This document shows positions 153 through 56,290 of a DNA stretch of 64,000 bases, piece by piece (position 1 is the first letter of the stretch; each line of letters opens with the position of its first letter). Location of the stretch: the IMG/VR virus record IMGVR_UViG_3300050156_000143, positions 1 through 64,000 of that record; one strand, given 5' to 3'. The notes under the pieces were generated by a model that saw only the letters and a list, made by a program, of their open reading frames with translations, searched no databases and was not told the origin of the DNA. This stretch comes from a virus. Its lineage: Duplodnaviria; Caudoviricetes. The position numbers were made by a program, and so were the translations under genes.

Positions 153-1342
153 ATGAGTATTAGCCCATGTAGTCTGGCAGTAATGCTATGTGACGGTCAA
201 TTTGACGTTGGAGACAACGTGATTACCACCCGTTCAGGTATTTTGGGTATAGGGTTAATAGGAAAAGTGGTGTATGTGTACAGCAGTTTGGTGGATGTGT
301 GTTTCCCATTTGGGACGTACATTATTGAGCGTGGTATGTTGAGGCATTATTTTGGAGAGTAACGTGGATGAATACAATGTTGCAATTTTGTTACTCACTG
401 GCACAATGTTTCAGCCCAGGGGATAAGGTCAGAGTAACCGTTGAGAATAGGCGAATGTTCCGGTTTCATCAACCCGGAACGGTGGTTGAAACTTGGAAGG
501 ATGGATGTGTGGTCATGATAGATCAATATGATTGCGACTGGTATATACTACGCGACCCGTGGATTCCGCACGTTTATCTCGTCTACGATTGGGAACAATA
601 TGGAAAACAACATGAATGAGCAAGATGTCGCAAACATGCTTATCGGTACTTTGCTGCCGAACGATAAGGTAAAAATTACGGTAGGACACGCTCCGTTGTA
701 TCGCCTTAACGACACGGGGACGGTGAAATCACGTCATATGGATGGTTACGTGGTTATATTAGACCTGTTTGATCCAAACTGGCATTGTCAACACAAAGTA
801 TGGATTTCAGATAGTCATTTAACATACGACTGGGAATACTATGAAAGGCAACATGGACGAACTGACCTTAGCCGATCTACTATTGGGAGACTATGACTTC
901 CAAATTGGGGATCGGGTGGTAATCAAGCAAACAAATGAGATGGCTACGATCGACAAGAAGTCGAACCCAGGATCGTGGTCATCGTCGCTTCACCTGAAAT
1001 ATCACGTGAAATACGATGTCCCACCCGACTACCCAATTTACAAAGTTTGGTTTGGGCGAAACGCCCTCCGTTTAGCTTATGAACAACCCCATGACTGAAA
1101 ACGAGTTGGCAAGAATTTTACTAGAAGGTGTCCCATTCCAACCTGGGGATATGGTGGAGTGTGTTGATGCGAGTTACACAGATGGCGACTTAAAACACGG
1201 CAAGTTGTATTGCGTTGGATTATCCAACCCAGGGTCACCACTGGTGGCGGTCAAACCCCGCGATACGAACGAACATTGCGATGAGAACATGATTATGTGG
1301 CATTTTCGAGCTAGCCGATTTAGATACTATTTCCCACCATGA
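153..1342 (+). CDS. Tandem array I of family A (SH3/KOW-like) paralogs: 153-362, 364-619 (frameshifted), 612-896, 853-1098, 1091-1342
   Basis: Each has DE/NE-x2-(L/V)A-x-LL-x-G-x1-2-F-x-x-GD-x-V near the N-terminus and an aromatic (H/Y)Y/F end; genes abut or overlap. Confidence 0.8.
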
Positions 1343-1367
1343 AAAAAGCGGCCTAGGCCGCTTTTTT
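1342..1367. terminator. Bidirectional intrinsic terminator AAAAAAGCGGCCTAGGCCGCTTTTTT
   Basis: Perfect 26-bp palindrome with A6/T6 tails between convergent genes; identical copies at 28289 and 38316. Confidence 0.9.
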
Positions 1368-1369
1368 GT

Positions 1370-2152
1370 TTAACTGTACAACTTCAAGAAATCAGGTATC
1401 AGGCGATGACGTTGAACATCTTTTGGCCCAAATTCGCACAAAGTGACCCCATCGATGGGCGATCGTTGCAAACGGTGTTGCAAATCTAGTAACCCGTTTT
1501 GTGCATTTTTTCGATCACTTTGTTCCACATCACCGTTAATCACGATTTTGCTGCCCGTGCCAATACGGGTGAGTAGCATCAATAAGTGCTCTGGGGTGGA
1601 ATTCTGGGCTTCATCCAGGATGATCCACGAGTCTTTGAAAGTTCTACCGCGCATATACCCCAACGGGCACATTTCAATCACTTGATCGTCTAACATTGTC
1701 TGCAACTCTGCACCAGAAAAAAACTCCCGAAGAACATCAAGTGCGGGTCGAGTCCAAGGTTCCATTTTGGAATTTAAATCACCTGGCAAAAACCCATGCT
1801 TTTCATCTTCAACTGCAACTGCTGGGCGAGTAAGCACAATGCGGTTGCATTCATTTGCTTTGAGCGCCTTAATTGCGGCAAGGAGTGCCAAGTATGTTTT
1901 GCCAGTGCCAGCAGGCCCAAACACTACGGTAACATCAATATCCGCATCGAGGAGTGCCATAATGTACCGCTCTTGATTGATCGTTTTGGGAACGAGGTTA
2001 ACGGGCCGGGATTTTGTTTTTGTTGGCTCAACGATTTTCGCATCTTTTGAGTAGAAGGTTTTATCAGAAATCGCGGCATTTGCGCGTTTAGACCTGGACA
2101 TATGAGTATCAGTAGATTGCCGGAGAATAGCACTGGTACGGTGTTTCGTCAT
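1370..2152 (-). CDS. phoH: PhoH-family ATPase
   Basis: GPAGTGKT Walker A, RIVLTRPAV, GFLPGDL, YMRGRTF, ILDEAQN, GDVEQSD. Confidence 0.95.
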   Translation of the reverse strand: MTKHRTSAILRQSTDTHMSRSKRANAAISDKTFYSKDAKIVEPTKTKSRPVNLVPKTINQERYIMALLDADIDVTVVFGPAGTGKTYLALLAAIKALKANECNRIVLTRPAVAVEDEKHGFLPGDLNSKMEPWTRPALDVLREFFSGAELQTMLDDQVIEMCPLGYMRGRTFKDSWIILDEAQNSTPEHLLMLLTRIGTGSKIVINGDVEQSDRKNAQNGLLDLQHRLQRSPIDGVTLCEFGPKDVQRHRLIPDFLKLYS

Positions 2153-2227
2153 TGAGGTTCCTTGAAGGTTGACTCACTTATTTAATGAGTGGATACGATC
2201 ATAGCACGGCAAGTCCTAAATAACCAC

Positions 2228-2788
2228 ATGAGCAAAAATAAGCAACCATATTTTGACCAAATTGATTATCAATATATCGTCAATAATATAAAAGGAATCT
2301 ACACGAGTGACGGGACAATGGCTGCACTGCTAGATTTTGAACGAGTGTTGGATGAAAGTGACTTATACGCATTCAAAAATTGGGAATATGGTGAATTAGT
2401 AGATGGCCCAAAGGTTAAGAAATACACCACATCCTGTGTTTTCATGTACCCTGAAAAACTCATGCCTGACCCCAGTGCTGGCAACCGTTTAATCACGATT
2501 GGCTGCAATGTGCAATTCAAGAAAACAAAGATAAAAGTCCCGGTAAAAGTGACTAATTACGATGACTTTGAACCTGGCACCAAGTATCAAAAAATGAAAG
2601 AGCACAATGTTTGGCTGGTGCAGATCATTATGCCAAAAGACTTGATGGACGATATTCGTGAAGGATCGATTGAATTGGCAGATCAGACCATAGACTTGGG
2701 TGATCTGGATGAAGCATACGCTGATGACCTCGACGAGACCCAAGTTAAAGAAGATGATGGCACAGCCAATATGATGGGAGGGTTTTAA
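2228..2788 (+). CDS. Conserved hypothetical jumbo-phage protein (probable start 2228)
   Basis: LLDFERVLDESDLYAFKNW block, acidic tail; TAAATA box 5 nt before ATG 2228. Confidence 0.65.
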   Translation: MSKNKQPYFDQIDYQYIVNNIKGIYTSDGTMAALLDFERVLDESDLYAFKNWEYGELVDGPKVKKYTTSCVFMYPEKLMPDPSAGNRLITIGCNVQFKKTKIKVPVKVTNYDDFEPGTKYQKMKEHNVWLVQIIMPKDLMDDIREGSIELADQTIDLGDLDEAYADDLDETQVKEDDGTANMMGGF

Positions 2789-3325: not shown

Positions 3326-3388
3326 TTGCTTGACAGTCTGCGACAATGGGTGCTACTATGGCACCCATAATGTTTTCTGGAGCGAAAG

Positions 3389-3625
3389 ATGAGCATGGAT
3401 GAGCAAGATGTGGTAATCGGGTTACTGAGAGGGTTTTCCAAAGGCGACATGGTGATTACTTGGCACAAAGACTTGCACGGCAATGACGTGATTGGCTCTG
3501 GGAAACTACTTGTCCGACTGGACATTTTCATCGATACGTGGCAAGTGTTAGTCCCAGACCCAGAAGACTATATGAGCATTCAATGGTTTCATGAATCCTG
3601 TTTAGAACATTTCTACCAACCTTGA
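3389..3625 (+). CDS. Family A paralog
   Basis: DEQDVVIGLLRGFSKGD...WFHESCLEHFY. Confidence 0.75.
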   Translation: MSMDEQDVVIGLLRGFSKGDMVITWHKDLHGNDVIGSGKLLVRLDIFIDTWQVLVPDPEDYMSIQWFHESCLEHFYQP

Positions 3626-3632
3626 GAACATT

Positions 3633-4725: not shown

Positions 4726-4971
4726 ATGAACAACACAATGAATGAAAACGAGTTAGCAAGAATTTTGCTAGAAGGCGTTCCTTTTCAACCTGGGGATATT
4801 GTGGAGTGTGTTGATGATAGCTATTCGTCTTTCTTAAAACTCGGGCAAGCGTACACGATCAAACAAGCGATCAATTTACACGGCGGACTACTTTTGATTA
4901 AAATGGTAGAATCCGACGTCAACTCTTCATATTACTACTCCAACCGTTTCGTATATCATTTCCCAGAATAG
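4726..4971 (+). CDS. Family A paralog, close relative of 1091-1342
   Basis: Shares ENELARILLEGVPFQPGD-x-VECVD at protein and DNA level with 1091-1342. Confidence 0.8.
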   Translation: MNNTMNENELARILLEGVPFQPGDIVECVDDSYSSFLKLGQAYTIKQAINLHGGLLLIKMVESDVNSSYYYSNRFVYHFPE

Positions 4972-4979
4972 AGGTCACT

Positions 4980-10800: not shown

Positions 10801-10803
10801 TAT

Positions 10804-11085: not shown

Positions 11086-14031
11086 TTGTACGTAGATGCT
11101 ATCCACGATAGAAATCAGGATAGGATTTTCGTAGTTGAACGTGATAAGGCGGGTAATCGTGTTTTTCAGGATTACCCGCCTAACTATTTGTTCTACTATC
11201 CTGATAAAAAAGGCAAATATCGAACCATTTATGGGGAATCGGTTGCCAAATTTCACACCAATCGACGCAAAGAATTTGAGAAAGAAAAGAAATTCTTTGC
11301 CAAGAAAAAGTTGTATGAAAGTGACATCAATGTAGTTTTCAGGTGTTTGTCGGAGAATTATCTCGGACAAGATTCGCCCACTTTGCACACATGCTTCTTT
11401 GACTTGGAAGTTGCATTTGATCCAGTAAGGGGGTATGCCCCAACAGATGATCCGTTTAACCCAGTAACCGCCATAGGTGTTTACTCAGATTGGATTGACC
11501 AGTTAGTCACATTGGTTGTCAAACCTTTTGACATGGACGACCAAGTTGCCGAGCAAATTTGCTCTCAATATTCCAATGTAATTTTATGCGACGATGAAAA
11601 GCAAATGTTTGAGATATTCTTTGAGATTATCTCAAACGCGGATGTTTTAACCGGGTGGAACTCTGAAGGATACGATATTCCGTATTCTGTTAACAGAGTA
11701 TCCCTCATCATGGGCAAAGAGTCCACTAAACGGTTTTGTTTATGGGGCCAAGAACCCAAGCCGCGAACTTATGAGAGGTTTGGCAAAGAAGAAACCACTT
11801 ACGACCTAATCGGTCGAGTTCATCTGGATTATCTTCAGTTATACAAAAAATATAATTACGAGTCGCGCCATAGTTACAAACTTGACTTTATTGGGGAAAT
11901 GGAGGTCGGAGAAAACAAGGTTCCGTATGACGGTTCTTTGCATAAGTTATATCACCATGACTTTAAAAAGTTCATAGACTATAACCAACAAGACGTGATG
12001 CTACTGTTTAAGATTCACCGAAAGCTGAATTTCCTACAGTTGGCCAACGTGATTGCTCACGATAATGCCGTACCTTTGCCCACTGTGATGGGATCGGTGG
12101 GCCTTATTGAGCAAGCCATTTTGAATGAAACCCATGCCCGTGGGTTTGTGGTGCAAGACAAACCCAGGGTGGTGGATGAGAATGCACAAACGGCGGCAGG
12201 AGCGTATGTTGCAACACCAAAACGCGGTCTTCACCGTGATATCGGTGGAGTAGACTTAAACTCGCTGTATCCATCGCTCCTACGAGCGCTAAACATGAGT
12301 CCTGAGACTCTGGTTGCTCAAATTAGACAAACGCTGACTGAGCCATTTATAAAACAGCGTTGCGCTGAATTGGCGCCCAAAAAGAAGAAAAGGGTTTATA
12401 GCACCGACGACGAATATGATCTAGACGATATGCAATTTGATGAATTCGGATACCGAATATCATCGGAAGTTAAAATGGTGGCAAAAGCATGGGACGGGTT
12501 GTTTGCATGCTTGGAATACACTGCCGTGATGAACCGTGAATCCACCATGTTGTGGATAGATTTTCAAGACGGGACTTCATATGAGTTAAGTGCAAGTGAC
12601 ATCTACGCCTTGGTGTTTGAAAGTGGTTATCAGTGGACTCTCAGTGCCAATGGCACGATTTTTACCACTGAAAAAGACGGTGTGATTCCCGGCCTCCTCA
12701 CGGGCTGGTATGTTGGTCGCCAGGATATGCAACGAAAACTTGCATTGCTCCCTGATTTGGCCACGGGCATTGATTGTGGATTAAAAGTCACAAGTTCATC
12801 AGGCCAGGCCGATAAGCTAGCCATCGATGTACAAGAACTCATTAACGCGATATCAAATGGAGACACGGGGCAAGCACAACGGTTTATCAACGAGTTTGGT
12901 CTTATTGTTTCTAACAACAAGATCACAGTGGATAAAAAGTTACTATCAGAATTTACCGAATATTGGGATAAACGACAGCACGTTCGTAAGATTTTGTTAA
13001 ACTCACTGTATGGCGCGTATTTGAATACACATTTCAGATATTATGACGTCAGAGTGGGGCAATCGGTGACGCTATCGGGCAGAACTACGATTAAGCACCA
13101 GTGTTCTCAAGTCAATTTCTTGATTACTGGGGAATATCGACATGATGGTGATGCCATTTTGTACGGCGATACTGATAGCACATTCTTTTCAGCATATCCA
13201 CAGTTTAAGCACTTGATCGAGACAGGTGAACTACCTTGGGAAAAACGAGATGTGATCGAGTTTTATAACTGGGTGGGAGAAGAGACCAACAATAGTTTCC
13301 CAGATTTTATGAACCGTGCTTTCCACTGTCCCACCAGACTTGGGAACATTATTAAAGCAAAACGGGAAATAGTTGGTGACAGTGGTTTATTCATCAAGAA
13401 AAAACGGTATGCGATCAACTTGTATGACAAGGATGGAAAACGGCTTGATGTCGGTGGAAAAACTGGTAAGCTAAAGGCTATGGGGTTGGAGTTAAAACGA
13501 TCTGACACTCCAAAGTCGGTGCAAACGTTCCTTGAGTCCACTTTGCGGCTAGTGTTGAAAGAACCCAACAAGGACACCATCGTCAAGCATATCAAAGATT
13601 TTAAGATGGCATTTTCTGAAAAACCGTCGCACGAAAAAGGTTCTCCAAAATCAGTCAACAAACTGACCATGTACCACAACATTTTGTTGCATAGTCCAAC
13701 CGGCAAGGCAACCATGCCAGGACACGTTAGAGCATCCATTAATTGGAACACCTTGCGGGAACACCATAACGACAATGTGAGCATGAAAATGATTGACGGT
13801 ATGCGAATTGTGGTATGCAAATTGTTGCCAAATCATTATGGTTTTACCAGCATTGCGTATCCAACTGACGAGCCACATTTGCCACAATGGTTTTTGGAAT
13901 TGCCTTTTGACGATGGGTTAATGGAGACAACTCTCATCGACGACAAAATAGAAAACATGCTAGGGGTGCTACAATGGGAACTAAAAAATAGCACCAACAT
14001 TAATACCAATTTTGATTCATTGTTTTACTAA
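11086..14031 (+). CDS. Family B DNA polymerase (gp43-like), TTG start
   Basis: Exo motifs FDLEV, GWNSEGYDIPY, YNQQD; polymerase motifs DLNSLYPS, KILLNSLYG, YGDTDS, KKRY. Confidence 0.97.
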   Translation: MYVDAIHDRNQDRIFVVERDKAGNRVFQDYPPNYLFYYPDKKGKYRTIYGESVAKFHTNRRKEFEKEKKFFAKKKLYESDINVVFRCLSENYLGQDSPTLHTCFFDLEVAFDPVRGYAPTDDPFNPVTAIGVYSDWIDQLVTLVVKPFDMDDQVAEQICSQYSNVILCDDEKQMFEIFFEIISNADVLTGWNSEGYDIPYSVNRVSLIMGKESTKRFCLWGQEPKPRTYERFGKEETTYDLIGRVHLDYLQLYKKYNYESRHSYKLDFIGEMEVGENKVPYDGSLHKLYHHDFKKFIDYNQQDVMLLFKIHRKLNFLQLANVIAHDNAVPLPTVMGSVGLIEQAILNETHARGFVVQDKPRVVDENAQTAAGAYVATPKRGLHRDIGGVDLNSLYPSLLRALNMSPETLVAQIRQTLTEPFIKQRCAELAPKKKKRVYSTDDEYDLDDMQFDEFGYRISSEVKMVAKAWDGLFACLEYTAVMNRESTMLWIDFQDGTSYELSASDIYALVFESGYQWTLSANGTIFTTEKDGVIPGLLTGWYVGRQDMQRKLALLPDLATGIDCGLKVTSSSGQADKLAIDVQELINAISNGDTGQAQRFINEFGLIVSNNKITVDKKLLSEFTEYWDKRQHVRKILLNSLYGAYLNTHFRYYDVRVGQSVTLSGRTTIKHQCSQVNFLITGEYRHDGDAILYGDTDSTFFSAYPQFKHLIETGELPWEKRDVIEFYNWVGEETNNSFPDFMNRAFHCPTRLGNIIKAKREIVGDSGLFIKKKRYAINLYDKDGKRLDVGGKTGKLKAMGLELKRSDTPKSVQTFLESTLRLVLKEPNKDTIVKHIKDFKMAFSEKPSHEKGSPKSVNKLTMYHNILLHSPTGKATMPGHVRASINWNTLREHHNDNVSMKMIDGMRIVVCKLLPNHYGFTSIAYPTDEPHLPQWFLELPFDDGLMETTLIDDKIENMLGVLQWELKNSTNINTNFDSLFY

Positions 14032-14032
14032 T

Positions 14033-19034: not shown

Positions 19035-19352
19035 ATGAGCGACCCCGAACTGGATTTAGCATCGCTATTGATTGGTGAATTCGAGGTGGGAGACACTGCG
19101 GAAATAATCGGCCTGCGCATTAATACGCTGAATTTTTCATGCGGCGACATCGTTACTGTGTTGGACGTTGTTACCTTTAATGCCGCCCTGGGCCGATCCG
19201 TGTGTATTACTCCAAAAATGGCAGTTGGCGAAAACCCGACCCGATTATCCAACAAACCGAGAACATGGTTATATTCCAGGTATCTCCGTCATCATTTTGG
19301 CCAAAATGACCCCACTGTGGGGTCAACTTCTCCACATTCTCCAGCACTTTAA
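19035..19352 (+). CDS. Family A paralog
   Basis: ELDLASLLIGEFEVGD...WLYSRYLRHHFG. Confidence 0.75.
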   Translation: MSDPELDLASLLIGEFEVGDTAEIIGLRINTLNFSCGDIVTVLDVVTFNAALGRSVCITPKMAVGENPTRLSNKPRTWLYSRYLRHHFGQNDPTVGSTSPHSPAL

Positions 19353-26715: not shown

Positions 26716-27009
26716 ATGGACGAACATGACGCTATCGTGAGTTTTTTGCGCGGGTTTTCTGAGGGCGATTTGGTAAAACTTACACAAACAATAAGTGCAT
26801 CCGAGACGAGCTGGATCATGGATATGCTCGACCCACAGCGGATGGTAAAAGCCATAGCTGGCACGTGGATCATTGACGCGATTGATGATAATCCAGGTGA
26901 ACGCCCGGCGTATCGAATAGTAATCACTGGCACATCACAATGCTCCCCATGTTGGGTATACGCTGAAGACATGGTTCATTACTACGACCAAGAAAGTGAT
27001 CCAAGATGA
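26716..27009 (+). CDS. Family A paralog
   Basis: MDEHDAIVSFLRGFSEGD...WVYAEDMVHYYD. Confidence 0.8.
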   Translation: MDEHDAIVSFLRGFSEGDLVKLTQTISASETSWIMDMLDPQRMVKAIAGTWIIDAIDDNPGERPAYRIVITGTSQCSPCWVYAEDMVHYYDQESDPR

Positions 27010-42114: not shown

Positions 42115-42465
42115 TCAGCTAAGGTAGATTTCAGGATGGAGCTTACCGTAGAGCTTGACGTATTTCCCGGCCATCATGTCGGCCAGCGCTTCGATTGCAC
42201 TGCCCGGATACGATTTTGATGCCGTTACCATCCCAAGATGTGATTGTCGGTAGTGAACAAGTTCGTGGAAAATGGTGCGGTAAACGTCAGCGGTCAATCT
42301 GCCAGCAATTTGCACATGAATGATGCGGTCAGTGATTGAAAATGACCCCGTTTTTGCACCGATGTTATTTCGAGTGAGAATGATTTTTGGCGCAGGGTTC
42401 TTGATGTTGAGCAGTTTAATCGCCCAATTCACGAAATCCACCACGTCGAATTCGTGTGCCCTCAC
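42115..42465 (-). CDS. HExxH metallopeptidase-like protein
   Basis: TIFHELVHYRQ, downstream EALAD. Confidence 0.65.
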   Translation of the reverse strand: MRAHEFDVVDFVNWAIKLLNIKNPAPKIILTRNNIGAKTGSFSITDRIIHVQIAGRLTADVYRTIFHELVHYRQSHLGMVTASKSYPGSAIEALADMMAGKYVKLYGKLHPEIYLS

Positions 42466-42905
42466 GCCCGCGCTTTCAAAATACTACGAAGTTGCCATAC
42501 ATGCTTGCCATGTGCAGCTAATCGTTCTGCCAAAAAGTTTGCAACACCTTGATGATTCTCGTTCGTTGCCAGTGTAAACGCATCGTTCAGCAATGTGATG
42601 ATCGCGGCGTGATCTTCCAGGAGTTCAGTCATCATAATGGACGCTTTTGGGATGTTTGGTTGCTCTGGCACCACAGAGAGTGATATAAATCGTGTCAACG
42701 ACCCTGGGGCGTAAGAATCTAGTACCCGAATAAACTCAGCAGTTCTGTCAACCGCATTGTCATATATTTCTTCGGCCATATTGCCGAAAAACTCGTGATA
42801 TTGTGGGAAATTATCACACTCCACATTCCAGTGAAAATTGAGGCATTTTGTATGTAACACGAAACTACTACCCAATACAGCTTTCAACTGATCGATTAAC
42901 ATCAT
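42462..42905 (-). CDS. dps: Dps/ferritin-like protein
   Basis: NFHWNVE...QYHEFFG...DRTAEFIR...FLAERLAAHGKHVWQLRS. Confidence 0.92.
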   Translation of the reverse strand: MMLIDQLKAVLGSSFVLHTKCLNFHWNVECDNFPQYHEFFGNMAEEIYDNAVDRTAEFIRVLDSYAPGSLTRFISLSVVPEQPNIPKASIMMTELLEDHAAIITLLNDAFTLATNENHQGVANFLAERLAAHGKHVWQLRSILKARA

Positions 42906-44884: not shown

Positions 44885-44885
44885 A

Positions 44886-45485
44886 TTATAACATGCGTTT
44901 TAATCTGATGATTGCTTCTGTTAGCTGCAACTGTGTGTCAAAAATTGGTTTCAAAGTGGGGGCATATTTTCCGTACAATGAACGCAATATGGTCATTTTG
45001 TTTGGCGACCTTGCATACAATTTGCGCACCATTCTGGCATCTTTGATTGTGTGCCCATCAACCGTGAATCTGCCCACTTCCAACGTTTTGACGTAAGCAT
45101 GTTCCAACACCGTTTCCCCAAACCCCTCCCAGGGTTGCATGTACGATTCGTCAGTAAAAGAAAATCGTGGGGAATCACCTCGCATATCTTTTTCTGAAAT
45201 ACCAAACACCAACACGGTGGATTCAGGATGTGCGAAAAGTGACGTATATTGTTTTGCCGAATAAGGTCTCTTCACGACCAAAATGTTTTTGCGTGGAATA
45301 CCAGCAGCCACCGCCATTTTGATTCTATCTTTTGAGGAAAATGGACTGTCAGGTAATTCTTGCTTTGAACTGATTGCAACAAACGAATGTTCGATACCAA
45401 ATTCGTTCACCAATTGCCAGAAAGCATGGGCATGCCCTTTGTGAAACGGGTGAAATCTACCTGGCATTATGGCGATGGTTGGCAT
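44886..45485 (-). CDS. Cytidyltransferase-like (HIGH-family) nucleotidyltransferase
   Basis: PGRFHPFHKGH. Confidence 0.8.
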   Translation of the reverse strand: MPTIAIMPGRFHPFHKGHAHAFWQLVNEFGIEHSFVAISSKQELPDSPFSSKDRIKMAVAAGIPRKNILVVKRPYSAKQYTSLFAHPESTVLVFGISEKDMRGDSPRFSFTDESYMQPWEGFGETVLEHAYVKTLEVGRFTVDGHTIKDARMVRKLYARSPNKMTILRSLYGKYAPTLKPIFDTQLQLTEAIIRLKRML

Positions 45486-45821
45486 ATTAGTAACTAAGAC
45501 TCACAAAATTGATAGTCCCGGCAGTAAATCCGGTCAATTTGGCCCGTATCAACACGAAATTGCCAATGACGTTCAAATAAGACGCCGCAGTGCCCGTCAA
45601 CGTGATGGAGTCAATTTGGCACCAATCGGCTTCAGACGGGGCATCCGCTAGGGTGCCTTCAATTGTGAGTGAACCAACTGCATTGGTGGCACTGTACGAC
45701 ACGGTTTGTCTATCTTTGCCAGCAAAGGTGTATCCAGCCGCTGGTTTGGCAATTCCGGTAACCGTTGGCCCAGCGGATGCCACAGTTTGTGCCAGCAATT
45801 GAACAGTTTGAATCTGTGACA

Positions 45822-45983
45822 TTACAGCCGCCCAACTTCTACCACAAAATCTGGAACAAGTTCTTGGACAACGTTTTGCACATCTGCAATCAAATCACCA
45901 CTCACATCGAAATTGATGTCATCGTTGTCGTGAATCAGTTTCTGAAACTTTACTTGAATAGTGGTTGTAACGATTGTTGCCAT
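45822..45983 (-). CDS. Small hypothetical late protein (53 aa, absent from ORF track)
   Basis: MATIVTTTIQVKFQKL...VVQELVPDFVVEV; TAAATA 4 nt upstream; overlaps 45487-45822. Confidence 0.6.
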   Translation of the reverse strand: MATIVTTTIQVKFQKLIHDNDDINFDVSGDLIADVQNVVQELVPDFVVEVGRL

Positions 45984-45990
45984 GTTGTAT

Positions 45991-46431
45991 TTATGGTGCA
46001 GTCAAAATGTCTCTAACTTGCATCAACAGTTTCCCCAACATGTTCGCACCTGATCCGTTTCCACCGTCACCCCAGTATTTGTCATTGGTGGTGTGCTCGC
46101 ACAATATACTGTCTCCGGTCGAAATCAATAATAACCTGAGCTTCTCATGTTGCGTGAATTTTGCAAGAAGCACTTTTAATATAACGTCGTTTTTGACCTG
46201 TTCCCAATCTTCTCTAAGTTGAACATCGGGATCGCGCCCATAAGTCGCTGCGAGTTTTGGAGTACCAGCTTTCCTTATTTTTTCTTGATACGTGGGGTCG
46301 ATGAACTTTTGCGATTGATAATAATGCTCCGAAGTTGGCCACAACTTGTTATCCAATCTGATCGGATACCTGACAAAATTAGAAAATGCACCGTAAGTCG
46401 AAGTGGTGGAATAAAAGTTGATCGTTTTCAT
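45991..46431 (-). CDS. NADAR (YbiA-like) protein
   Basis: FSNF, WPTSEHYYQSQKF, LLAKFTQH, DKYWGDG...NMLGKLLMQVR. Confidence 0.92.
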   Translation of the reverse strand: MKTINFYSTTSTYGAFSNFVRYPIRLDNKLWPTSEHYYQSQKFIDPTYQEKIRKAGTPKLAATYGRDPDVQLREDWEQVKNDVILKVLLAKFTQHEKLRLLLISTGDSILCEHTTNDKYWGDGGNGSGANMLGKLLMQVRDILTAP

Positions 46432-46707: not shown

Positions 46708-47832
46708 TCAATCGGCATAATAGTGTGAAATCTCATCTTCAAACAGCCAAAAACCCAGAGAATTTGCAATCTGAACATCAACTCGATATTGCGGGGCGGG
46801 ATATGAGACCGCAACCAAACGAACATATGGTTGTTTGCATAGCCACTCAAATTCTTTTCTGCCAGTTTTGAAATACGGATTATGTTTTTGTTGCAGATGT
46901 CTCAGGTTTCCAGGCCCGTGTACAACAACCTTATCCCCAACCTGAAATCCCCGTAGTGGGCCGATTAACTCATCATGTTCAATTATTGTGTTCCTCATAT
47001 TGGTGGACGATTTCATCATCGTGAACCCATACTGTTTCAAAATAGTTCGGGTAAGTTTCGATTTCGAGCAGATACGCTGGTGAATTAACTGGGTCATAAT
47101 CCACTAGAACTATTTTTCCCTTGGAACCAGACATGGCTATTTCTGACTCGGACAATGCCCACGAGTTCAATGATGCGCGACGCTGTGCAGTATCCGATTG
47201 ATTCACTTTGAATACAATTTTGTCGCCAATTTCAAACCCACGAAGTAACGATGCCAAGGAAAGTTCGTCCATACTAATTCTCAAAGTGGAAATTAAGGTC
47301 TGACCCACTGAACCACGATGAATGGTTAAACTTGCTATTGGGTTCATCACAGTGCAAGGACTCGACGAACCCAAAAAACTCGGGATCAACATCTACCAAA
47401 TAACTATCATCCGCATAGTCGCAAACGATGACCACACCCGTCATCCCCGATTTTGCATATGCACGTAATTCATCATCGGACGCGGTGACAATCACTCGGT
47501 CTCCAATTTCATACGGCACATCGGATAACAACAGGTTGGCCACATCGGTTTCAATCATTTTGTTCCTCATAGTAGTGAGTGAGTTCATCGGAATATGCCC
47601 ATACAGTTGGCAAATTCGTGCCAAGACTGATTTTGTGACACGGCTCGTCCACATCGACGGCCAAAATTATCGCTGGGGTCATCCCAAGCCCGTTCTGATT
47701 TCTAATATGCACATATAAGAAGACGATATCCTCACCAGCGTCATTTTTCTTTCGCATTTTCCCCGAATGCAATGTGACTTTATCCCCAACCTGAAATCCC
47801 CGTAGAAGGCCGATTATTTCATCTTGTTCCAT
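46708..47832 (-). CDS. Tandem array II of family A: 47551-47832, 47274-47558, 46979-47272, 46708-~46990
   Basis: DEIIGLLRGFQVGD / DVANLLLSDVPYEIGD / DELSLASLLRGFEIGD N-termini; DE(I/L)xHYYE C-termini. Confidence 0.85.
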
Positions 47833-48027
47833 CTGATGTGTACTCGTAGTAAGAAGTTAGAAACTCATGGACTGTCAAGTCTCCAGAACTGTACGTCACG
47901 GTTTTGACAATGTATCGCCCAATTTTGCGCCGCATGCACCAACGTAGCCACAGAAAGTGGTCTCCGACCTTGATCGGCAACCATGCAAAGTGCGCTGTGT
48001 ATTCGGTGATGGGCTTATCAATGATGT

Positions 48028-48759: not shown

Positions 48760-49222
48760 ATAAATCCGACAATTTCATATTGGGGCAAACTTTTGCCAAA
48801 TAGTGACATTTATTTTGGGTGGTCACGTAGTCAGCAATGTGTGTGGCAGACGTTTCTCCAATTTTGTTGAAATATTCTTTGGCATCTTTGTGTTTAATTT
48901 TTTCCCTAAACTTGGTGTATTTTGTTGACAACTGTGGAATCCACTGATGCTTCAACATTGTTCCCAAACTGGCTGAACACAGTAACTGCCATTGTAAGGT
49001 CGGGTGACGACCAATTGTCGAACTAAACATCAAGTCGTTGATGTGATTGTATCCTCGAACCTGATACTCCTGTGTGTCCTGATTGCCTGTGACTGAACTA
49101 AGCCAGATCATCATAGTGTATGGGGCAAATTTACGTTGTTCTTCTATGGGCAATGATGCCAGGTATCCATACGATTTTGAATCGATGGCGGTCAATACTG
49201 GGAATAAATTGAAGTCACTCAT
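48695..49222 (-). CDS. Possible clamp-loader small subunit-like protein
   Basis: LTAIDSK...FAPYTMMIWLSSV...HPTLQWQLL recalls gp62-like proteins; tentative. Confidence 0.4.
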   Translation of the reverse strand: MSDFNLFPVLTAIDSKSYGYLASLPIEEQRKFAPYTMMIWLSSVTGNQDTQEYQVRGYNHINDLMFSSTIGRHPTLQWQLLCSASLGTMLKHQWIPQLSTKYTKFREKIKHKDAKEYFNKIGETSATHIADYVTTQNKCHYLAKVCPNMKLSDLYELSTYVTQDDITDHQASSGM

Positions 49223-51873
49223 TAGTCGTTTTGTCGGGAAAGTGGAATTTAAGTTCTTCATCAAAGTACATATAACAGATGGCACCAACCATGACGTAAT
49301 TTGCCAGCCATGTTTTATGCACTATTTTTCCGACAAAGCCCGCATTGGTTCTCACCGTGTCTCCCACCTCGAATTCCGCGTCTGAAAGGAGCATTTGAGC
49401 CACATCGTCTTCATCATGTTCAATCATTTTGATCCTCATAGTAATGGGAAATTTCGTCAGAATATACCCAAACATTGGGCGAACTCGGGCTGAAGTTGAT
49501 TTTGTAACACGGTTCTTCCAAATCGACTGCCAAAATTCGCGCATGAACTAAACGTTGTCTAATGCGTAACCGGTTGAAGAGGTCATCATCCACTACGTTA
49601 TCAGTTTTTCGCATTTTCCCCGAATGCAATGTGACATTATCACCAATTTCAAACCCACGTAGAAGGCCGATTATTTCATCGTGTTCAGTCATTTCGATCC
49701 TCATAGTAATGGGCGATTTCGTCTTCCCAAAGCCAAAACTGTTCACCTGTGTAGTCCACTGAAACGACCCCAATACCATATTGTGGGCATGGATACATGA
49801 TGTCTGTCAATTCCACATATGGTTGCTGAACTAGCCAATCGAATATACGTTGGTAATCAGGTTCTCTCAGTTTCGGAACGCTTGGTTCACGTACAACAAT
49901 TTTGTCCCCCACGCAAAAGCCCCGTAGAAGGCCGATTATTTCATCGTGTTCAATCACGTTGATCTCCAAAATGGTGAGTAATTTCATGTGGATATACCCA
50001 CCACCAGCCAATGTCTTGTGTCCGACATGCAATCGATGGGTATGGGTGCTCTGGTGGCACATCAAGGACATCGGTTATGGTTCCCGTGCGCCCCTCGAAC
50101 CGTCTTAGGCGTTGTTGTCTAATAATTTGTCGAGATTCGACGGCGGGTTCAAATGCGAGTCTCCGTGAGTAATCCAGATGAAATACGACTTCATCCCCAG
50201 CGCAAAAGCCCCTCAATATGCCGATCAACTCATCTTGGTTCATGATAGGGTAGAAGATTTAACGAACAAATTTAGATCGGCAGCGGTAGCGAATTCCAAT
50301 GAAAGTTCATGGACAAAAACACAACAGTTGCCATCCCTTAAATCTTGAAACACTTCAACCCGCATGCAACTAACCGTGAAAGGAACGCTAAAGACACATG
50401 CGTGCATGGTGTTATCAATGTACCCACGTATTTGCGCCAAATCGTATTGGAATGAATTTCCATCCACAAAAAATCGCGGAATTAATTCAAACCGATCTAG
50501 CAATTCATCCGCAGTGAAAGTAATCGTGCGTGTCATTCCGGGAAATAGTGTTTACAATAATTGATATGAGTGACAATCACGATGTCGGCCCACGCTGGCG
50601 AGTCCAAAATAATTGACACGTTTTCCCCATCAGATTCGACAACGGTTCCTGCATATTTTTCACCACAGTAGTCATACATGATGGGATCACCTTCGTCAAA
50701 TGGTGTGCCATCGATCAGTAAACTTGCTAACTTATTTTCATTCATGATGCACCTTGATCAAAAAAGTATTCCAAATCGTTGCGTGTATACCATAAACACA
50801 ACTTCTGATAAGTTAGTTTGGAATCAAATACGATCTGAATTTCCATGCCTCTTACGATAGCAGCTACCGTTCCGACTAATCCATTCCCATCAAACTGATC
50901 GTCTGCATTCTTGCCAATCGCCATCATTGCCACTGTATCTGGGTCAGCTTTGACCCTTATCCGGTCTCCGATCTCGAACTGTACATCGGATAACAACAGG
51001 TTGGCTAAATCGGTTTCAGTCATTTTGTTCCTCATAGTAGTGAGTGAGTTCATCTTCAAATGCCCACATTGTTCTAGTCGTAAATCTGACCTGAATTGGC
51101 GCCGATCCGGGAGGTTCCGTGTATATTCTAATCACCACGCAACCCCGTCCATCTAGACTACTGGCTAATTCAGCGTCGTGAATCCCAAATACTCGTCGAT
51201 CTGTTCTCCTGGAAGCATCGAAGTGATAAATTACTTCATCACCAACTTCAAACCCACGTAGTAACGATGCCAAAGAAAGTTCGTCCATGATGCACCTCAC
51301 AGTGAAAACTGTTGTCTAAATGATGATAGCCCATTATCCGAATCAAACTGTAAGACCAATTCTATAATTCGCACAGTTATTTTTGGTTTAATGACATAGC
51401 GGTCACCCTCTGGGGTCACCACTATCCCTGGCACACTAGATTGCTCTATCTCAACTGTATGTTTAACCACGCTCCCGCCGTATTCCGACAATTTAATCGA
51501 CACTGCATCTAGGTAAAATTTGTCGATGTGTGTTCGCATGTTCTCAAGCCCAGACATGTATGTGGTAAACGATGTTGGCGGGCCAAATATTTTAAACAAT
51601 GCCAGACGACGCAATATCATCGTCGATTTTTGGTCAGTTTTCATAATAGTGAGTAATTTCATCGGAAAATACCCACTCACGCAATGTATTGTGCTCAATC
51701 CGGTATCGTGGCTCACTGTCATCACAATCAACGATCCTCCAATAGACACCCGTTAGTGGTAGTGCGTATCGCCACGATATATCGTGGTATTCCCGCATTT
51801 CACCTGGCCACACCGTCACCGTGTCCCCTACGCAAAACCCCCGTAGTAGACCGATCATTTCATCTTGTTCCAC
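49215..51873 (-). CDS. Tandem array III of family A (8 copies: 49215-49427, 49420-49692, 49685-49957, 49950-50243, 50533-50745, 50742-51023, 51016-51288, 51634-51873) with two family B-like genes interleaved
   Basis: Conserved termini, mostly 8-nt overlaps, repeated DNA blocks. Confidence 0.85.
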
Positions 51874-53559: not shown

Positions 53560-55028
53560 TTATAATTCACTTTCTCGATATCAAACGGATACTGAGCATT
53601 TTTGTAAAATTCCTTACGTTTGGTAAGGTGGCGTTTAGCAAATTTGCAACTTGAGGTGATATCGTAAATTTGGACAAAGTTCTTGTCTTCTGTTCTACGT
53701 ATTCCTCGGCCTATACTCTGGATAACTCTTACGAACGATTTGCCAGGTTCAATCAAAACCACATTGAAAATTCTCGGGGCGTTGATACCAACCGCTGCTA
53801 CCCCATAAGTCGCTATCGTAATCTGGTTATTGCTGGTGGCGATGGATTCATATTCGTCTTTTCTATCTGCCTGTTTCATCTTGCCACTTACAAAAGTGAC
53901 TTCAGGCTTGTTGTACAAGCTGGTCTCCGATGAGAGCATGATTTGTAACATTTTGCCAGCTTCGATTCTATCCACCAGCACCAGTGTGTTTCCACTGTTT
54001 TTTATGTCCAAAATCTGTTTAGCAATGACCTCCATTCTGGACACATCTTCTACCAAAAATTTCAACTCGGCTTGGTAATTGCCGAATTCTCGCTGGTCTT
54101 GTAATTGCAGTATCTTTACATGGCAATCGGACAATACCTTTTTATCTTGTAGTTGCTTTGCAGTGAGTTTGTTTGTGACCGGGCCAATAGATGTTATCAA
54201 AGATGTGTAATCTATTTTCTCCGGCGGAATCGTCCCCGTTAGCCCCAATCTGATGGGTATCTTTGCCATACAACCACAGAGCATGCTTCTGAGTTTATTG
54301 GCCTTTGCGCTGTGGGTTTCATCCACTATGACACATATTACCCCGTCTAGGAACTCACTATTATCAACTAGCGCGGTTCCCTTGATAATAATGTCAATAC
54401 TCTGCCAGGTGCAAATGACGTGTGTGTGGTTTGCCTCTTTTCTATCCCCGTAGTAAACCCCGACATCGAGTCCAAGGTTTATATAATCGGCCTCGGTCTG
54501 TTCTACTAAACTCTTGTTTGGAACTATGACAATCGATCTGCCATATTGTTGAACCATGAGGCTCACCGCCGCAGTGATCAGGGTTTTGCCAGCAGATGTT
54601 GCCAGTTCTTGAATGCACTGGCGATTGGTTAGAAAGTCGTTTACGGCGGTAACTTGATAGTCTCTGAGCATCACGGGCTTGCCAGCCGCTGGGTGTTTCT
54701 CTGGCCAGACAATGTGTGCAAAAGAATCTTCTCGTATGGGATCAAAGTGCATGTCATGTGAGTAATCACGCAAATCGTCCAATTCAAGTTGGTAATTCCG
54801 TTTCTCCAAAATTGGGATAATTTCAGACAACAAATTGATATAGGTTGTCCCGTTAGCGTTGAAAAACGCTGTTTTGCCGTTCCAGCGTCCAAGTCTCACG
54901 CTGGGCATAAACCTGGCGCTAGGAATTTCATATTCAAATTGTCTTTGCAACAGTGATTTAGTTTGTGGGTCTAATCCTGTAATACGGCAATTTACTTCAT
55001 CTAGTATTTGTATGGTGCAGTTGGGCAT
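53556..55028 (-). CDS. uvsW: UvsW-like SF2 DNA helicase
   Basis: LRDYQ, ATSAGKT, IVDETH, GLTGT, QSIGRGIR. Confidence 0.93.
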   Translation of the reverse strand: MPNCTIQILDEVNCRITGLDPQTKSLLQRQFEYEIPSARFMPSVRLGRWNGKTAFFNANGTTYINLLSEIIPILEKRNYQLELDDLRDYSHDMHFDPIREDSFAHIVWPEKHPAAGKPVMLRDYQVTAVNDFLTNRQCIQELATSAGKTLITAAVSLMVQQYGRSIVIVPNKSLVEQTEADYINLGLDVGVYYGDRKEANHTHVICTWQSIDIIIKGTALVDNSEFLDGVICVIVDETHSAKANKLRSMLCGCMAKIPIRLGLTGTIPPEKIDYTSLITSIGPVTNKLTAKQLQDKKVLSDCHVKILQLQDQREFGNYQAELKFLVEDVSRMEVIAKQILDIKNSGNTLVLVDRIEAGKMLQIMLSSETSLYNKPEVTFVSGKMKQADRKDEYESIATSNNQITIATYGVAAVGINAPRIFNVVLIEPGKSFVRVIQSIGRGIRRTEDKNFVQIYDITSSCKFAKRHLTKRKEFYKNAQYPFDIEKVNYK

Positions 55029-55445
55029 GTAGTGAGGAGTTAGCGCTATTATATCATCCGATGATGTATTTAAGCGGTAAGATGCGAGTATACCAGAATA
55101 CTGGTAGAATACTGGTATACAAACTGGGGGAACTATGTCAAATATGTTAGTTGAAAGTGGGTGAGTTCTTCAGCGGAATTAAAATTGATTATCGTGTGAG
55201 TCAATGTGTGCCATGTGATACTTGGGATGTCTGGAAACCGGACTAGAAATCTTTCCACGTTTTGTGGCACAGTGAGTTCACAATGGTAACCCAAAACGGA
55301 AGAAAGGCTATTCGCCACCTTTTCCAACAGTGTTGGCAACATATCCACATAAACATCACTACTAACGCATCTGGTAATCCCAAGTAGGAATGCGTTGGGC
55401 AGCAAGGGATATATGGCAGAGAATGGCACTATGATCGCACAGCTT

Positions 55446-56290
55446 TCATCCATAGTAGTGAGCGATTTCATCAGAAAATACCCAGTCATATACACGATCG
55501 TTCAAACTATCTCCACCATTCCAATACACTCTATATGCTGGCTCGGTGGTATCAATCATGTCAATGATCCAATAAACGTGTTCTGCATCATTGGAGTCGC
55601 ATAGGATGTTGCCTGACCATCCAGCATCTGCCCGTTGATTCCTAATAGGGTACAACGTAACTCTAACTTTGTCTCCAACGCAAAAGCCCCGTAGAAGGCT
55701 GATTATTTCATCTTGATCAGACATCTTGATCTCCATAGTGGTATGCAAGGCGGGCAGATGGAATCCACATTTTAAATGGGGCAGAGTTAAGATTAGTATG
55801 TTGGTTGGAAAATGATATTCTGGCCCATTTTGTGGACTCACGATCGCTAACAACGCCTATCACTGTGCCAATATCACCGACATTGTACAAAAATTCATCC
55901 TGATGAACCGGGGAGCTTACGATGATCACTTTATCACCAGGCTGAAAGTCGCCCCGTAACAAATTTGCCAAAACAATTTCATCCATATTATTCCCCATAA
56001 TAATAGACCAATTCTTCAGAACATACTGGCATCATGCGGGGTATTGAGCATAGATCGTCTTGCCGTCTAACACACCAAGGTGGCTCTATCCCATCCTCAT
56101 ACTTTTCGATCACCACGCATATTGTCCCTGGTGGATAATCGTCCATCTCGGTTTGCGATCTTTTGTCAGTGAACCTCGGGAGTGATATTTTTCGTTTTGA
56201 TACATCATTTGACAATATTTTCACCAAGTCACCTGGCTGAAAATCACCCAGCAAAAGTGTGGCCACCCGTTCTTCACAAATTTCGTTCAT
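55446..56290 (-). CDS. Tandem array IV of family A: 55988-56290, 55717-55986, 55446-55724
   Basis: VATLLLGDFQPGD / LANLLRGDFQPGD / DEIISLLRGFCVGD; (H/Y)YG ends. Confidence 0.85.

What the first reader, a model, noticed from the sequence alone, without database searches (positions are those of the whole stretch)
153..56290. About 24-copy family of small SH3/KOW-like proteins with fixed ends and hypervariable cores (family A)
Seen: 24 ORFs of about 70-105 aa in four tandem arrays (153-1342 x5, 46708-47832 x4, 49215-51873 x8, 55446-56290 x3) plus singles (3389, 4726, 19035, 26716). All share an N-terminal acidic/amphipathic tag running into a first strand, DE(I/L)xxLL(R/L)G-F(E/Q/C)(V/I/P)GDxV. 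Most also end in W(V/L)xxDE(I/L)xHYY(E/G). The 40-70 residues in between do not align by eye. Knowledge: GDxV...G.V...Y.V...W is the strand pattern of SH3/KOW/Tudor-like barrels. Inference: this is a diversified effector repertoire, with a shared docking tag and variable binding loops, e.g. anti-defence or host-takeover adaptors. The arrays sit between core genes (uvsY-uvsW, uvsW-clamp loader), suggesting lineage-specific expansion. I do not recognise this as a described family.
Basis: partly seen in the sequence, partly recalled or inferred. Interest (0 to 1): 0.85.

Follow-up and report, generated by a model that had tools for sequence, protein, structure and literature searches.

The report
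Expanded SH3-like small-protein family, jumbo phage
An uncultured 277-kb phage carries 41 copies (24 in this window) of a small, mostly acidic SH3/KOW-type barrel protein that is not in Pfam or PHROGs, arranged in overlapping gene arrays whose conserved gene junctions seem to let the variable middles be reshuffled; its function is unknown.

Summary
The whole 277,516-bp phage record holds 41 such genes.

Two AlphaFold models (pLDDT 73 and 87) give the same fold: an N-terminal helix plus a five-stranded SH3-like barrel. The best matches are Tudor, KOW, Agenet and Mind-bomb repeats.

No Pfam, PHROG or PADLOC family claims it. Profile searches show only remote kinship to SH3_15 repeats (hhalign 96%), YdhK/DUF1541 and Spt5 KOW. 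Full-length relatives were found only in this phage and near-identical strains.

The "fixed ends" are helix plus strand 1, and strand 4 Trp, a 3-10 turn and strand 5. The "cores" do align as a barrel with large loop indels.

Part of the end conservation is at DNA level:
- The C-terminal Y-E/G-E/D codons encode the next gene's Shine-Dalgarno and overlapping ATG.
- Junction blocks are up to 69/72 identical between arrays whose cores are unrelated.
- N-terminal, core and C-terminal modules have different nearest paralogs.
- Related strains differ by whole gene units and by replaced cores.

Function is only inferred: a diversified set of protein-binding modules for host takeover or counter-defence. 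A "docking tag" is not shown. The scan's first readers noted the same arrays and junction repeats on this genome, not on other DNA.

The parts
153..362 (+). family copy (69 aa), first of the 5-gene + strand array
   Evidence: HMM E 4.4e-10; coordinates
368..619 (+). family copy (83 aa)
   Evidence: HMM E 2.4e-13
612..896 (+). family copy (94 aa; start overlaps the end of the previous gene; an upstream ATG at 528 is unlikely)
   Evidence: HMM E 4.5e-19; start candidates
853..1098 (+). family copy (81 aa; alternative ATG at 841)
   Evidence: HMM E 4.1e-16
1091..1342 (+). family copy (83 aa; alternative ATG at 1079). Its N-terminal block is 88% nt-identical to 4738 over the 22 aligned codons, then the two diverge
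3395..3625 (+). single family copy (76 aa; the ATG at 3389 with GGAG 6 nt upstream is at least as likely as 3395)
   Evidence: HMM E 1.2e-14
4738..4971 (+). single family copy (77 aa; alternative ATG at 4726)
   Evidence: HMM E 1.5e-14
19035..19352 (+). single family copy (105 aa, with a C-terminal tail)
   Evidence: HMM E 5.8e-16
26716..27009 (+). single family copy (97 aa); its stop overlaps the start of a BCS1-like AAA ATPase gene (27006-28289)
   Evidence: HMM E 2.2e-23
46708..46998 (-). family copy (96 aa), last gene of the 4-gene array
   Evidence: HMM E 8e-23
46979..47272 (-). family copy (97 aa)
   Evidence: HMM E 1.1e-26
47274..47558 (-). family copy (94 aa, net charge -15)
   Evidence: HMM E 2.3e-19
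47551..47832 (-). family copy (93 aa), first gene of the 4-gene array
   Evidence: HMM E 2e-26
49215..49427 (-). family copy (70 aa), last gene of the 8-copy array
   Evidence: HMM E 2.1e-14
49420..49692 (-). family copy (90 aa); modelled, pLDDT 73
49685..49957 (-). family copy (90 aa, GTG start); missing from the related strain contig L012
49950..50243 (-). family copy (97 aa)
   Evidence: HMM E 8.3e-25
50533..50745 (-). family copy (70 aa); modelled, pLDDT 87: helix at residues 3-11 plus five strands
50742..51023 (-). family copy (93 aa); its core is largely replaced in strain L012
51016..51288 (-). family copy (90 aa)
   Evidence: HMM E 4.6e-26
51634..51873 (-). family copy (79 aa, GTG start), first of the 8-copy array
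   Evidence: HMM E 4e-28
55446..55724 (-). family copy (92 aa), last of the 3-gene array between uvsY/HNH and uvsW
55717..55986 (-). family copy (89 aa)
   Evidence: HMM E 1.3e-25
55988..56290 (-). family copy (100 aa), first of the 3-gene array
   Evidence: HMM E 3.1e-21
47518..47589 (-). junction block: C-terminal codons of 47551-47832, the SD inside them, the ATGA overlap, and the N-terminal codons of 47274-47558. It is 69/72 identical to 50983-51054
   Evidence: D7 (123 nt, 83%)
50983..51054 (-). second copy of the junction block (gene 51016-51288 into gene 50742-51023)

Best explanation
SHOWN.
- This is a real lineage-specific expansion of a previously unclassified small protein of 66-105 aa, median pI about 5. 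There are 24 genes in the window and 41 in the 277.5-kb jumbo phage.
- Each modelled copy is an N-terminal alpha-helix followed by a five-stranded SH3-like (Tudor/KOW-type) barrel.
- The conserved N-terminus is the helix plus strand 1 (F-x-x-G-D-x-V). The conserved C-terminus is the Trp at the end of strand 4, a 3-10 turn and strand 5 (L-x-H-Y-Y).
- The variable middle is strands 2-4 with loops that carry indels of up to about 35 residues.
- The genes lie head to tail with overlapping stop and start codons. The Shine-Dalgarno of each downstream gene is written in the Y-E/G-E/D codons of the upstream C-terminus.
- The unit conserved in DNA is therefore the gene junction, 53-134 nt long and up to 96% identical.

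INFERRED WITH FAIR SUPPORT.
- Homologous recombination or gene conversion between these junctions keeps the ends alike, moves cores between contexts and changes copy number.
- Purifying selection also acts on the N-terminal block at the protein level.

INFERRED BY ANALOGY ONLY.
- The products are a repertoire of small protein-binding modules on one scaffold with different loop surfaces.
- They would be made alongside the replication and recombination genes and aimed at different host proteins, for takeover or counter-defence.
For: Family and copy number.

Fold:
- Models of pLDDT 73 and 87 have the same strand order; the better one also shows the N-terminal helix.
- VIA matches are PHF19 Tudor (Z 8.4, rmsd 1.4, 52 aligned), AGDP3 Agenet (Z 8.3), Spt5 KOW (Z 8.0), NusG KOW (Z 7.6) and the Mind-bomb repeat (Z 7.3).
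- BFVD, AFDB and Atlas agree.

Remote sequence kinship:
- hhalign to SH3_15 repeats gives 96% probability, E 3.8e-9.
- PDB profile hits are YdhK at 1.1e-6 and Spt5 at 2e-6.

Coupling and SD inside the C-terminal codons.

Mosaicism:
- In the window's closest N-terminal pairs (nt identity 0.79-0.88) pS is 0.19-0.44, while the same pairs have core identity 0.29-0.47 and core pS 0.71-0.83, apart from 47551/49420 whose cores are also alike (0.68). The best partner often differs between modules.
- One junction block is 69/72 identical. Repeat families are listed.

Strain variation:
- L012 is 91% identical overall. Three of its five shared copies have core amino-acid identity of 54-67% with in-frame indels, and it lacks one gene unit.
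- Contigs from other samples join across whole units or replace cores.

Selection:
- In the strain comparison pS is about 0.3 in all parts, but pN is 0.044 (N), 0.145 (core) and 0.098 (C).
- Forty of the 41 copies are separate intact ORFs; the remaining ORF (122231-122719) fuses two domains and its first half lacks an ATG start.

Acidity: 33 of 41 copies have pI < 6.

Precedents:
- Amplification of a small anti-defence gene in T4 (bioRxiv 10.1101/2022.04.14.488369).
- Junction-mediated shuffling in T4-type phages (PMC2839356).
- A ~35-copy zinc-ribbon expansion in phage G (PMC7824862).
Against: - No functional datum exists. There is no expression data, no partner and no cultured host.
- Core dN/dS is about 0.45, not above 1, so diversifying selection is not shown. 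Relaxed constraint would fit as well.
- Core divergence between paralogs is near saturation, so the lack of N-versus-core correlation (Spearman 0.01) is weak evidence for shuffling.
- Joints seen in short metagenome contigs have short sides (21-49 nt) and could partly come from other strains or from repeats.
- The SH3-like fold is very common and by itself says nothing about function.
Confidence: 0.5

Rival explanations
1. Packaged, injected proteins. The conserved N-terminus would be a capsid-targeting sequence like that of the T4 internal proteins IPI-III. The variable remainder would be a set of injected inhibitors of host nucleases.
For: [quoted passage not shown]
- The family here has a constant N-terminus and a diverse body, is small and is mostly acidic.
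Against: - The N-terminal block is modelled as a helix (residues 3-11; pLDDT 72 for 1-10 and 88 for 11-20) that runs on into strand 1.
- No conserved (L/I)-x-E cleavage site follows it. L-L-E-G occurs in only two copies.
- The C-terminus is conserved too.
- The arrays lie among replication and recombination genes, not head genes.
Confidence: 0.1
2. The fixed ends are only a by-product of DNA-level processes: translational-coupling signals and gene conversion at junctions. The copies would be leftovers of repeated amplification with little individual function.
For: - The SD and ATG of the next gene lie inside the C-terminal codons.
- A junction block is 69/72 identical.
- Synonymous divergence at the ends is lower than in the cores for the closest pairs.
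- Copy number differs between strains.
Against: - Distant arrays at 180 kb and 253 kb keep the N-terminal protein motif although their synonymous sites are saturated there (pS 0.6-0.9, pN 0.1-0.3, against core pN 0.6-0.7).
- Between strains, N-terminal pN is 0.044 against pS 0.33.
- The last genes of arrays, which have no downstream partner, still carry the aromatic C-terminus.
- All copies are open, and indels between strains are in frame.
Confidence: 0.15
3. Nucleic-acid-binding regulators: KOW-, Tudor- or Sm-like factors acting on RNA, DNA or the transcription machinery.
For: - Best fold and profile matches include Spt5/NusG KOW domains and a PWWP-ssDNA complex.
- An N-terminal helix plus small barrel is also the Sm/Hfq layout.
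Against: - Median pI is 5.0 and median net charge -4. Only 1 of 41 copies is basic.
- No NGN domain is attached.
- Only one weak LSM14 hit was found, E 0.14.
Confidence: 0.1
4. Targeted hypermutation by a diversity-generating retroelement makes the variable cores.
For: Variable regions are framed by constant sequence.
Against: - No reverse transcriptase is found in the 277-kb record. The PF00078 search was empty while the controls rang.
- Substitutions between strains are ordinary transitions in both directions, not adenine-specific.
- The cores differ by large indels.
Confidence: 0.01

Closest known systems
Mind-bomb-type SH3 repeat (Pfam SH3_15, PF18346; PDB 4TSE)
   Same: - The sequence pattern matches: F-x-V-G-x-x-V-x-V ... 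G-x-x-G-x-V ... V-x-F ... W ... E-(M/I/L)-x.
- hhalign gives 96% probability, E 3.8e-9 over 51 columns.
- The exhaustive profile search is dominated by such repeat proteins.
   Different: - Those are many repeats inside one long, mostly eukaryotic protein, from fish and Cafeteria. Here each unit is its own gene with its own start and stop.
- Only 2 of 44 members touch the Pfam model, best E 2.1e-4.
- The N-terminal helix and the H-Y-Y end are specific to the phage family.
KOW domains of NusG/Spt5, and Tudor/Agenet/chromo barrels
   Same: - Same fold: Z 7.6-8.4, rmsd 1.4-3.0.
- Profile hits to Spt5 KOW at E 2e-6 and NusG at E 0.003.
- The G-D-x-V-x-V ... G-x-x-G-x-V motif is KOW-like.
   Different: - The phage proteins are stand-alone and acidic, with no NGN domain or chromatin context.
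- No aromatic cage was tested.
- Pfam KOW matches 2 of 44 members, best E 7.5e-4.
Bacillus subtilis YdhK (DUF1541; PDB 4MDW, 2KY9, 4FIB)
   Same: - It is the best sequence hit among solved structures, E 1.1e-6.
- It shares the W-V-x-x-D-E-L end of the barrel.
   Different: - YdhK is a two-barrel bacterial protein of unknown function, not a multigene family.
- No member hits the Pfam DUF1541 model on its own.
PeSL cassettes of T4-type phages (Arbiol et al. 2010, PMC2839356)
   Same: - Short conserved blocks sit between small, variable accessory genes in plastic regions between core genes.
- Recombination between the blocks gives insertions, deletions and replacements between close strains.
   Different: - PeSLs are non-coding promoter plus stem-loop units between unrelated ORFans.
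- Here the block is coding (C-terminus, SD, N-terminus), the genes are paralogs, and no promoter or terminator signal above shuffles was seen.
T4 internal proteins with a capsid-targeting sequence (PMC3012670)
   Same: A constant N-terminus on otherwise diverse small proteins; known counter-defence role (IPI*).
   Different: - No cleavage motif is present.
- The N-terminus looks like part of the fold, and the C-terminus is conserved too.
- The location is not in a head module.
- Packaging was not tested.
Lineage-specific expansions in jumbo phages, e.g. the ~35 zinc-ribbon genes of Bacillus phage G (Iyer et al. 2021, PMC7824862)
   Same: Tens of copies of one small domain in one jumbo phage genome.
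   Different: - The domain here is an SH3-like barrel, not a zinc ribbon.
- Here there is also the junction-repeat architecture, plus evidence from strains.

Membership tests
SH3-like small beta-barrel fold (Tudor/KOW/chromo class) | Five bent strands forming a small barrel, with a 3-10 turn before the last strand | tested here: met
   The AF2 models show five strands (E21-26, 29-38, 42-47, 56-60, 64-66) and a turn at 61-63. Matches at Z 7-8.4 are to Tudor, KOW, Agenet and PWWP.
Pfam KOW (PF00467) | Match to the curated model at its gathering score | tested here: inconclusive
   2 of 44 members match, best E 7.5e-4. The family profile hits Spt5 KOW chains at E 2e-6.
NusG/Spt5 proteins | KOW domain attached to an NGN domain | tested here: not met
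   The proteins are 66-105 aa, and the two modelled copies consist of a single barrel. No NusG/NGN family match was found.
Pfam SH3_15 (Mind bomb SH3 repeat, PF18346) | Match to the curated model | tested here: inconclusive
   2 of 44 members match, best E 2.1e-4. Profile-profile comparison gives 96% probability, E 3.8e-9.
Pfam SH3_15 (Mind bomb SH3 repeat, PF18346) | Tandem repeats within one polypeptide | tested here: not met
   Each unit has its own start and stop. Only one two-domain ORF exists, at genome 122231-122719.
DUF1541 / YdhK | Sequence match to the family | tested here: inconclusive
   The profile hits YdhK chains at E 1.1e-6 to 1.9e-6. No member hits the Pfam model at E <= 10.
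T4-type internal proteins (CTS-tagged) | About 10-residue N-terminal targeting peptide ending in a prohead-protease site (L/I)-x-E | tested here: not met
   No conserved L/I-x-E follows the N-terminal block. The block is modelled as a helix that runs on into strand 1.
T4-type internal proteins (CTS-tagged) | Presence in the virion and ejection with the DNA | not testable with these tools
   The phage is uncultured and no proteome exists.
DGR variable proteins | Reverse transcriptase plus template/variable repeat with adenine-specific changes | tested here: not met
   No RVT_1 match in the record. The substitution spectrum is symmetric transitions.
PeSL regulatory cassettes | Sigma-70 promoter plus terminator stem-loop between ORFs | tested here: not met
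   Genes overlap by 1-8 codons with no intergenic space. Promoter-like and terminator-like sites are not above shuffles: 21 vs 27.8 and 11 vs 10.3.
PeSL regulatory cassettes | Recombination between the repeated blocks reshuffles the genes between them | tested here: inconclusive
   Evidence in favour: module incongruence, a unit missing in L012, and joints in other samples. No long reads or experiment are available.
Sm/Hfq-like proteins | Sm1/Sm2 motifs and ring oligomers | tested here: inconclusive
   One weak LSM14 hit, E 0.14. The fold lists are led by Tudor/KOW matches, not Sm.

The most novel reading that the evidence does not exclude
The arrays are a recombination-based diversity system in a phage. 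The coding junctions (end of one gene, its neighbour's ribosome-binding site and start) would act as portable homology arms. These would let the phage population swap, duplicate and delete hypervariable SH3-like binding cores. The result would be a natural combinatorial binder library, comparable in logic to antigenic-variation cassettes, tuned against varying host proteins or defences.
Probability: 0.2. Interest if true: 0.85.

Novelty: new variant of a known kind. Interest (0 to 1): 0.6.

Why it matters
About 4% of a jumbo phage genome is spent on one small domain that no database names. Expansions of this size are rare in phages; the ~35 zinc-ribbon genes of phage G were called unprecedented (PMC7824862).

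The family offers a compact, well-folding scaffold of 70 aa (pLDDT 87) with natural loop diversity. It also offers a clear case in which protein motifs, translation signals and recombination substrates are written in the same bases.

If the copies prove to be inhibitors of different host proteins, they would be a ready-made panel for finding new phage-host conflict points. The junction architecture would then be a new way for phages to generate and exchange such inhibitors.

Tried and rejected
- **Single-member database scans.** Pfam, PHROGs and PADLOC gave nothing usable.
- **Word-index protein search with A1.** It returned only the phage's own proteins and one 5-kb JGI contig of a near strain.
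- **GenBank phages.** tblastn with one member and blastn with neighbouring genes gave no match.
- **Pattern scans with A4.** A2 was too diverse for the tool.
- **Homodimer prediction of the 70-aa copy.** No verdict (score 0.01). This is not evidence either way.
- **Expression.** No RNA holder was listed among the sequencing runs.
- **Promoter and terminator scan of 45.5-57.5 kb.** Not above shuffles.
- **DGR.** Rejected.
No hit at E <= 0.001. VIA and the second model were needed.
- **Global codon-identity test over all 820 pairs.** It showed only a modest excess at the ends: 39-48% against 34%. The signal is confined to the closest pairs.
- **Mantel tests of module similarity.** Uninformative for all 41 copies because the cores are saturated.
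- **Clamp loader next to the arrays.** Not confirmed.
- An empty script.

Full report
**What the window is.** The window is the first 64 kb of a 277,516-bp IMG/VR virus record with direct terminal repeats. Its DNA polymerase (11086-14031) is at most 44% identical to those of Sinorhizobium phage Phosso, Agrobacterium phage Atu_ph07 and the Rak2/GAP32 group of jumbo phages. Runs that hold the sequence are leaf-litter and freshwater metagenomes.

**Checking the observation.**
- I built an HMM from six obvious copies and iterated it on every stop-to-stop ORF of the window. There is a gap from E = 2.5e-9 to E = 0.77.
- On the whole genome the same procedure gives 41 ORFs, or 42 domain matches.
- The extra copies lie at 180.8-182.3 kb (6), 184.4-185.6 kb (4), 188.0 kb (1) and 253.7-255.7 kb (5). 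There is also one ORF at 122.2-122.7 kb that carries two domains in one frame.
- It is by far the largest paralog family of the genome.
- The F-x-x-G-D-x-V block is in 24 of 24 window copies. The strict W..DE(I/L).HYY end is in 8 of 24, and a looser aromatic end is in 19 of 24.
- Amino-acid identity over all 41 copies is 44% (N block), 13% (core) and 22% (C block). The ends really are much more conserved.

**Fold.**
- With the 44-45-sequence alignments, AlphaFold gives pLDDT 73 for 49420-49692 (90 aa) and pLDDT 87 for 50533-50745 (70 aa).
- The better model has a helix at residues 3-11, five strands, and a short turn before the last strand.
- Both models match small SH3-like barrels: PHF19 Tudor (Z 8.4, rmsd 1.4 over 52 residues), AGDP3 Agenet (Z 8.3), Spt5 KOW (Z 8.0), NusG KOW (Z 7.6), Mind-bomb repeat (Z 7.3), NdhS/NdhO, PsaE and YorP.
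- BFVD lists many small uncharacterised phage proteins of the same shape. AFDB and the Atlas give Spt5 KOW, Tudor and Agenet.
- The conserved N-terminus is therefore helix plus strand 1, and the conserved C-terminus is the end of strand 4, the turn and strand 5. It is established knowledge that strands 1 and 5 are neighbours in this fold, so the two 'fixed ends' should lie together on one side. I could not inspect coordinates to confirm this.
- The middle aligns as strands with a G..G.V and a Y.V.F pattern. The strands are separated by loops with indels of up to about 35 residues.

**Family membership.**
- No member reaches a Pfam, PHROG or PADLOC family.
- The exhaustive profile search found 1858 proteins at E <= 0.001. 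The top ones are long proteins hit 5-28 times on the barrel part only.
- Of the ten top hits scanned, two carry strong SH3_15 (Mind bomb SH3 repeat) matches, and the two named ones are eukaryotic, from a fish and from Cafeteria.
- Every full-length single-domain hit among the best 150 is from this genome or a near-identical strain.
- A profile-profile comparison with SH3_15 repeats gives 96% probability, E 3.8e-9.
- Against solved structures the profile hits YdhK/DUF1541 (E 1.1e-6, sharing W-V-x-x-D-E-L) and Spt5 KOW (E 2e-6).
- So it is a new family inside the SH3/KOW superfamily, not a member of a named family.
- Phosso and the Vibrio phage have no match. Atu_ph07 has one marginal match, E 0.002.

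**Gene junctions.**
- Within arrays the stop of one gene overlaps the start of the next, in ATGA-type overlaps.
- The codons for Y-E/G-E/D, such as TAT GAG GA, TGG GAG or TAT GGG GA, supply GAGG, GGAG or GGGG 6-9 nt before the next ATG.
- Part of the C-terminal 'motif' is thus also a ribosome-binding site.
- At the DNA level the repeated units are these junctions. Families of 53-134 nt are 64-87% identical, and one 72-nt block is 69/72 identical between two arrays.

**Mosaicism.**
- For pairs such as 1091/4738, 47274/50742, 46979/51016 and 49420/49685, nucleotide identity is 73-93% in the first 20 codons. It falls to about 30-40% in the core, which is random level, and in the last two pairs it rises again at the end.
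- For the window's closest N-terminal pairs, synonymous divergence is 0.19-0.44 at the N-terminus. It is 0.71-0.83 in the cores of the same pairs, except 47551/49420 whose cores are also related (pS 0.43).
- The nearest paralog often differs between the N, core and C modules. For example, 46708 pairs with 47551 at the N-terminus but with 49685 in core and C. Likewise, 47551 pairs with 51016 at the C-terminus at 90%.
- This is what gene conversion or crossing-over at junctions would give.
- It is not the whole story. In distant arrays the N-terminal protein motif persists with saturated synonymous sites (pS 0.6-0.9, pN 0.1-0.3).

**Strain comparison.**
- A 5.1-kb JGI contig (L012) is 91% identical to 54902-49899.
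- Core genes there are 93-100% identical per 60-nt bin. The cores of three family copies drop to 40-75% with in-frame indels, while their ends stay at 90-100%.
- Pooled over five orthologous copies, pS is about 0.3 everywhere, and pN is 0.044 (N), 0.145 (core) and 0.098 (C). The cores are under weaker constraint or some diversifying pressure, but dN/dS stays below 1.
- L012 lacks gene 49685-49957. The join lies in the conserved end region.
- Contigs of three other samples show a skip of 538 nt (two gene units, 49442 to 49981). They also show joins between paralogous starts (49950 to 47834, in two runs), and stretches where only the cores fail to align.
- These contigs are short, so I treat them as supporting evidence, not proof.

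**Function.**
- Nothing measured bears on it.
- The proteins are acidic: median pI 5.0, with 33 of 41 below 6. This argues against nucleic-acid binding and for protein binding or mimicry.
- The arrays lie in the replication and recombination region, co-oriented with gp32-like SSB, UvsX, UvsY, an HNH gene and UvsW.
- All copies are open, and strain indels keep the frame.
- By analogy with SH3, Tudor and Mind-bomb repeats as peptide binders, I favour a repertoire of binding modules against host proteins. Amplification of small counter-defence genes in T4 points the same way (10.1101/2022.04.14.488369).
- I put that functional step at roughly one in three to one in two.
- A capsid-targeting role of the N-terminus (PMC3012670) is less likely. 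No cleavage site follows it, and it looks like part of the fold.
- A DGR is excluded.

**Comparison with known systems.**
- The closest mechanistic parallel for the architecture is PeSL-mediated modular shuffling in T4-type phages (PMC2839356). There the repeated blocks are non-coding promoter-terminator units between unrelated genes.
- The closest parallel for the scale is the ~35-copy zinc-ribbon expansion of phage G (PMC7824862).
- I rate this a new variant of a known kind. It combines a new SH3-superfamily family, an unusually large phage expansion, and conserved coding junctions that double as translation signals and likely recombination sites.

**Earlier notes of this scan.** Notes on the same genome (e1-5382585, e1-5382576, e1-5382586) describe the same arrays and the junction repeat. 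I re-derived both independently. Nothing like it was reported on other DNA.

Noticed in passing
genome 122231-122719 (outside the window; L011:1231-1719): One ORF carries two family domains in a single frame with no stop between them. The first domain has no ATG start. In a related strain (P0143, contigs L013 and L014) the first domain is a separate 79-aa gene with a normal start and is followed by an 83-aa gene. This is either a recent fusion or a decaying copy.
   Followed up: partly
window 26716-28289: The single family copy 26716-27009 overlaps by 4 nt the start of a 427-aa BCS1-like AAA ATPase (Pfam BCS1_N plus AAA). This suggests possible co-translation of a family member with an unfoldase or translocase-type ATPase.
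   Followed up: no
window 56649-57380 (-): A 243-aa ORF has a weak HNH endonuclease match (E 3e-4, just under the Pfam cut-off). It sits between the UvsY side and the 3-gene array, and could be a homing-type insertion in the plastic region.
   Followed up: no
window 44886-46431 (-): A NADAR domain protein (E 1.4e-37) lies near a cytidylyltransferase-like protein, directly downstream of the 4-gene array. This could be a module for NAD/ADP-ribose-related metabolism or counter-defence.
   Followed up: no
window 49215-51873: Two non-family ORFs are interspersed in the 8-copy array: 50240-50536 (98 aa) and 51297-51749 (150 aa). Neither has a Pfam or PHROG match. Both are conserved in strain L012 (93% and 84% aa identity).
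   Followed up: partly
window 47428-47718 (+) and 50911-51156 (+): Two antisense ORFs resemble each other in BLASTP only because they lie opposite paralogous junction blocks. They are almost certainly not genes.
   Followed up: yes
window 1370-2152 (-), 28335-29786 (-), 42462-42905 (-): Accessory genes recognised in passing: PhoH-like ATPase (E 2e-67), an amidoligase-like protein, and a ferritin-like protein.
   Followed up: no
genome-wide: The second-largest paralog group has six members of about 290-420 aa, at 75.5, 122.7, 128-130 and 133.9-135.9 kb.
   Followed up: no
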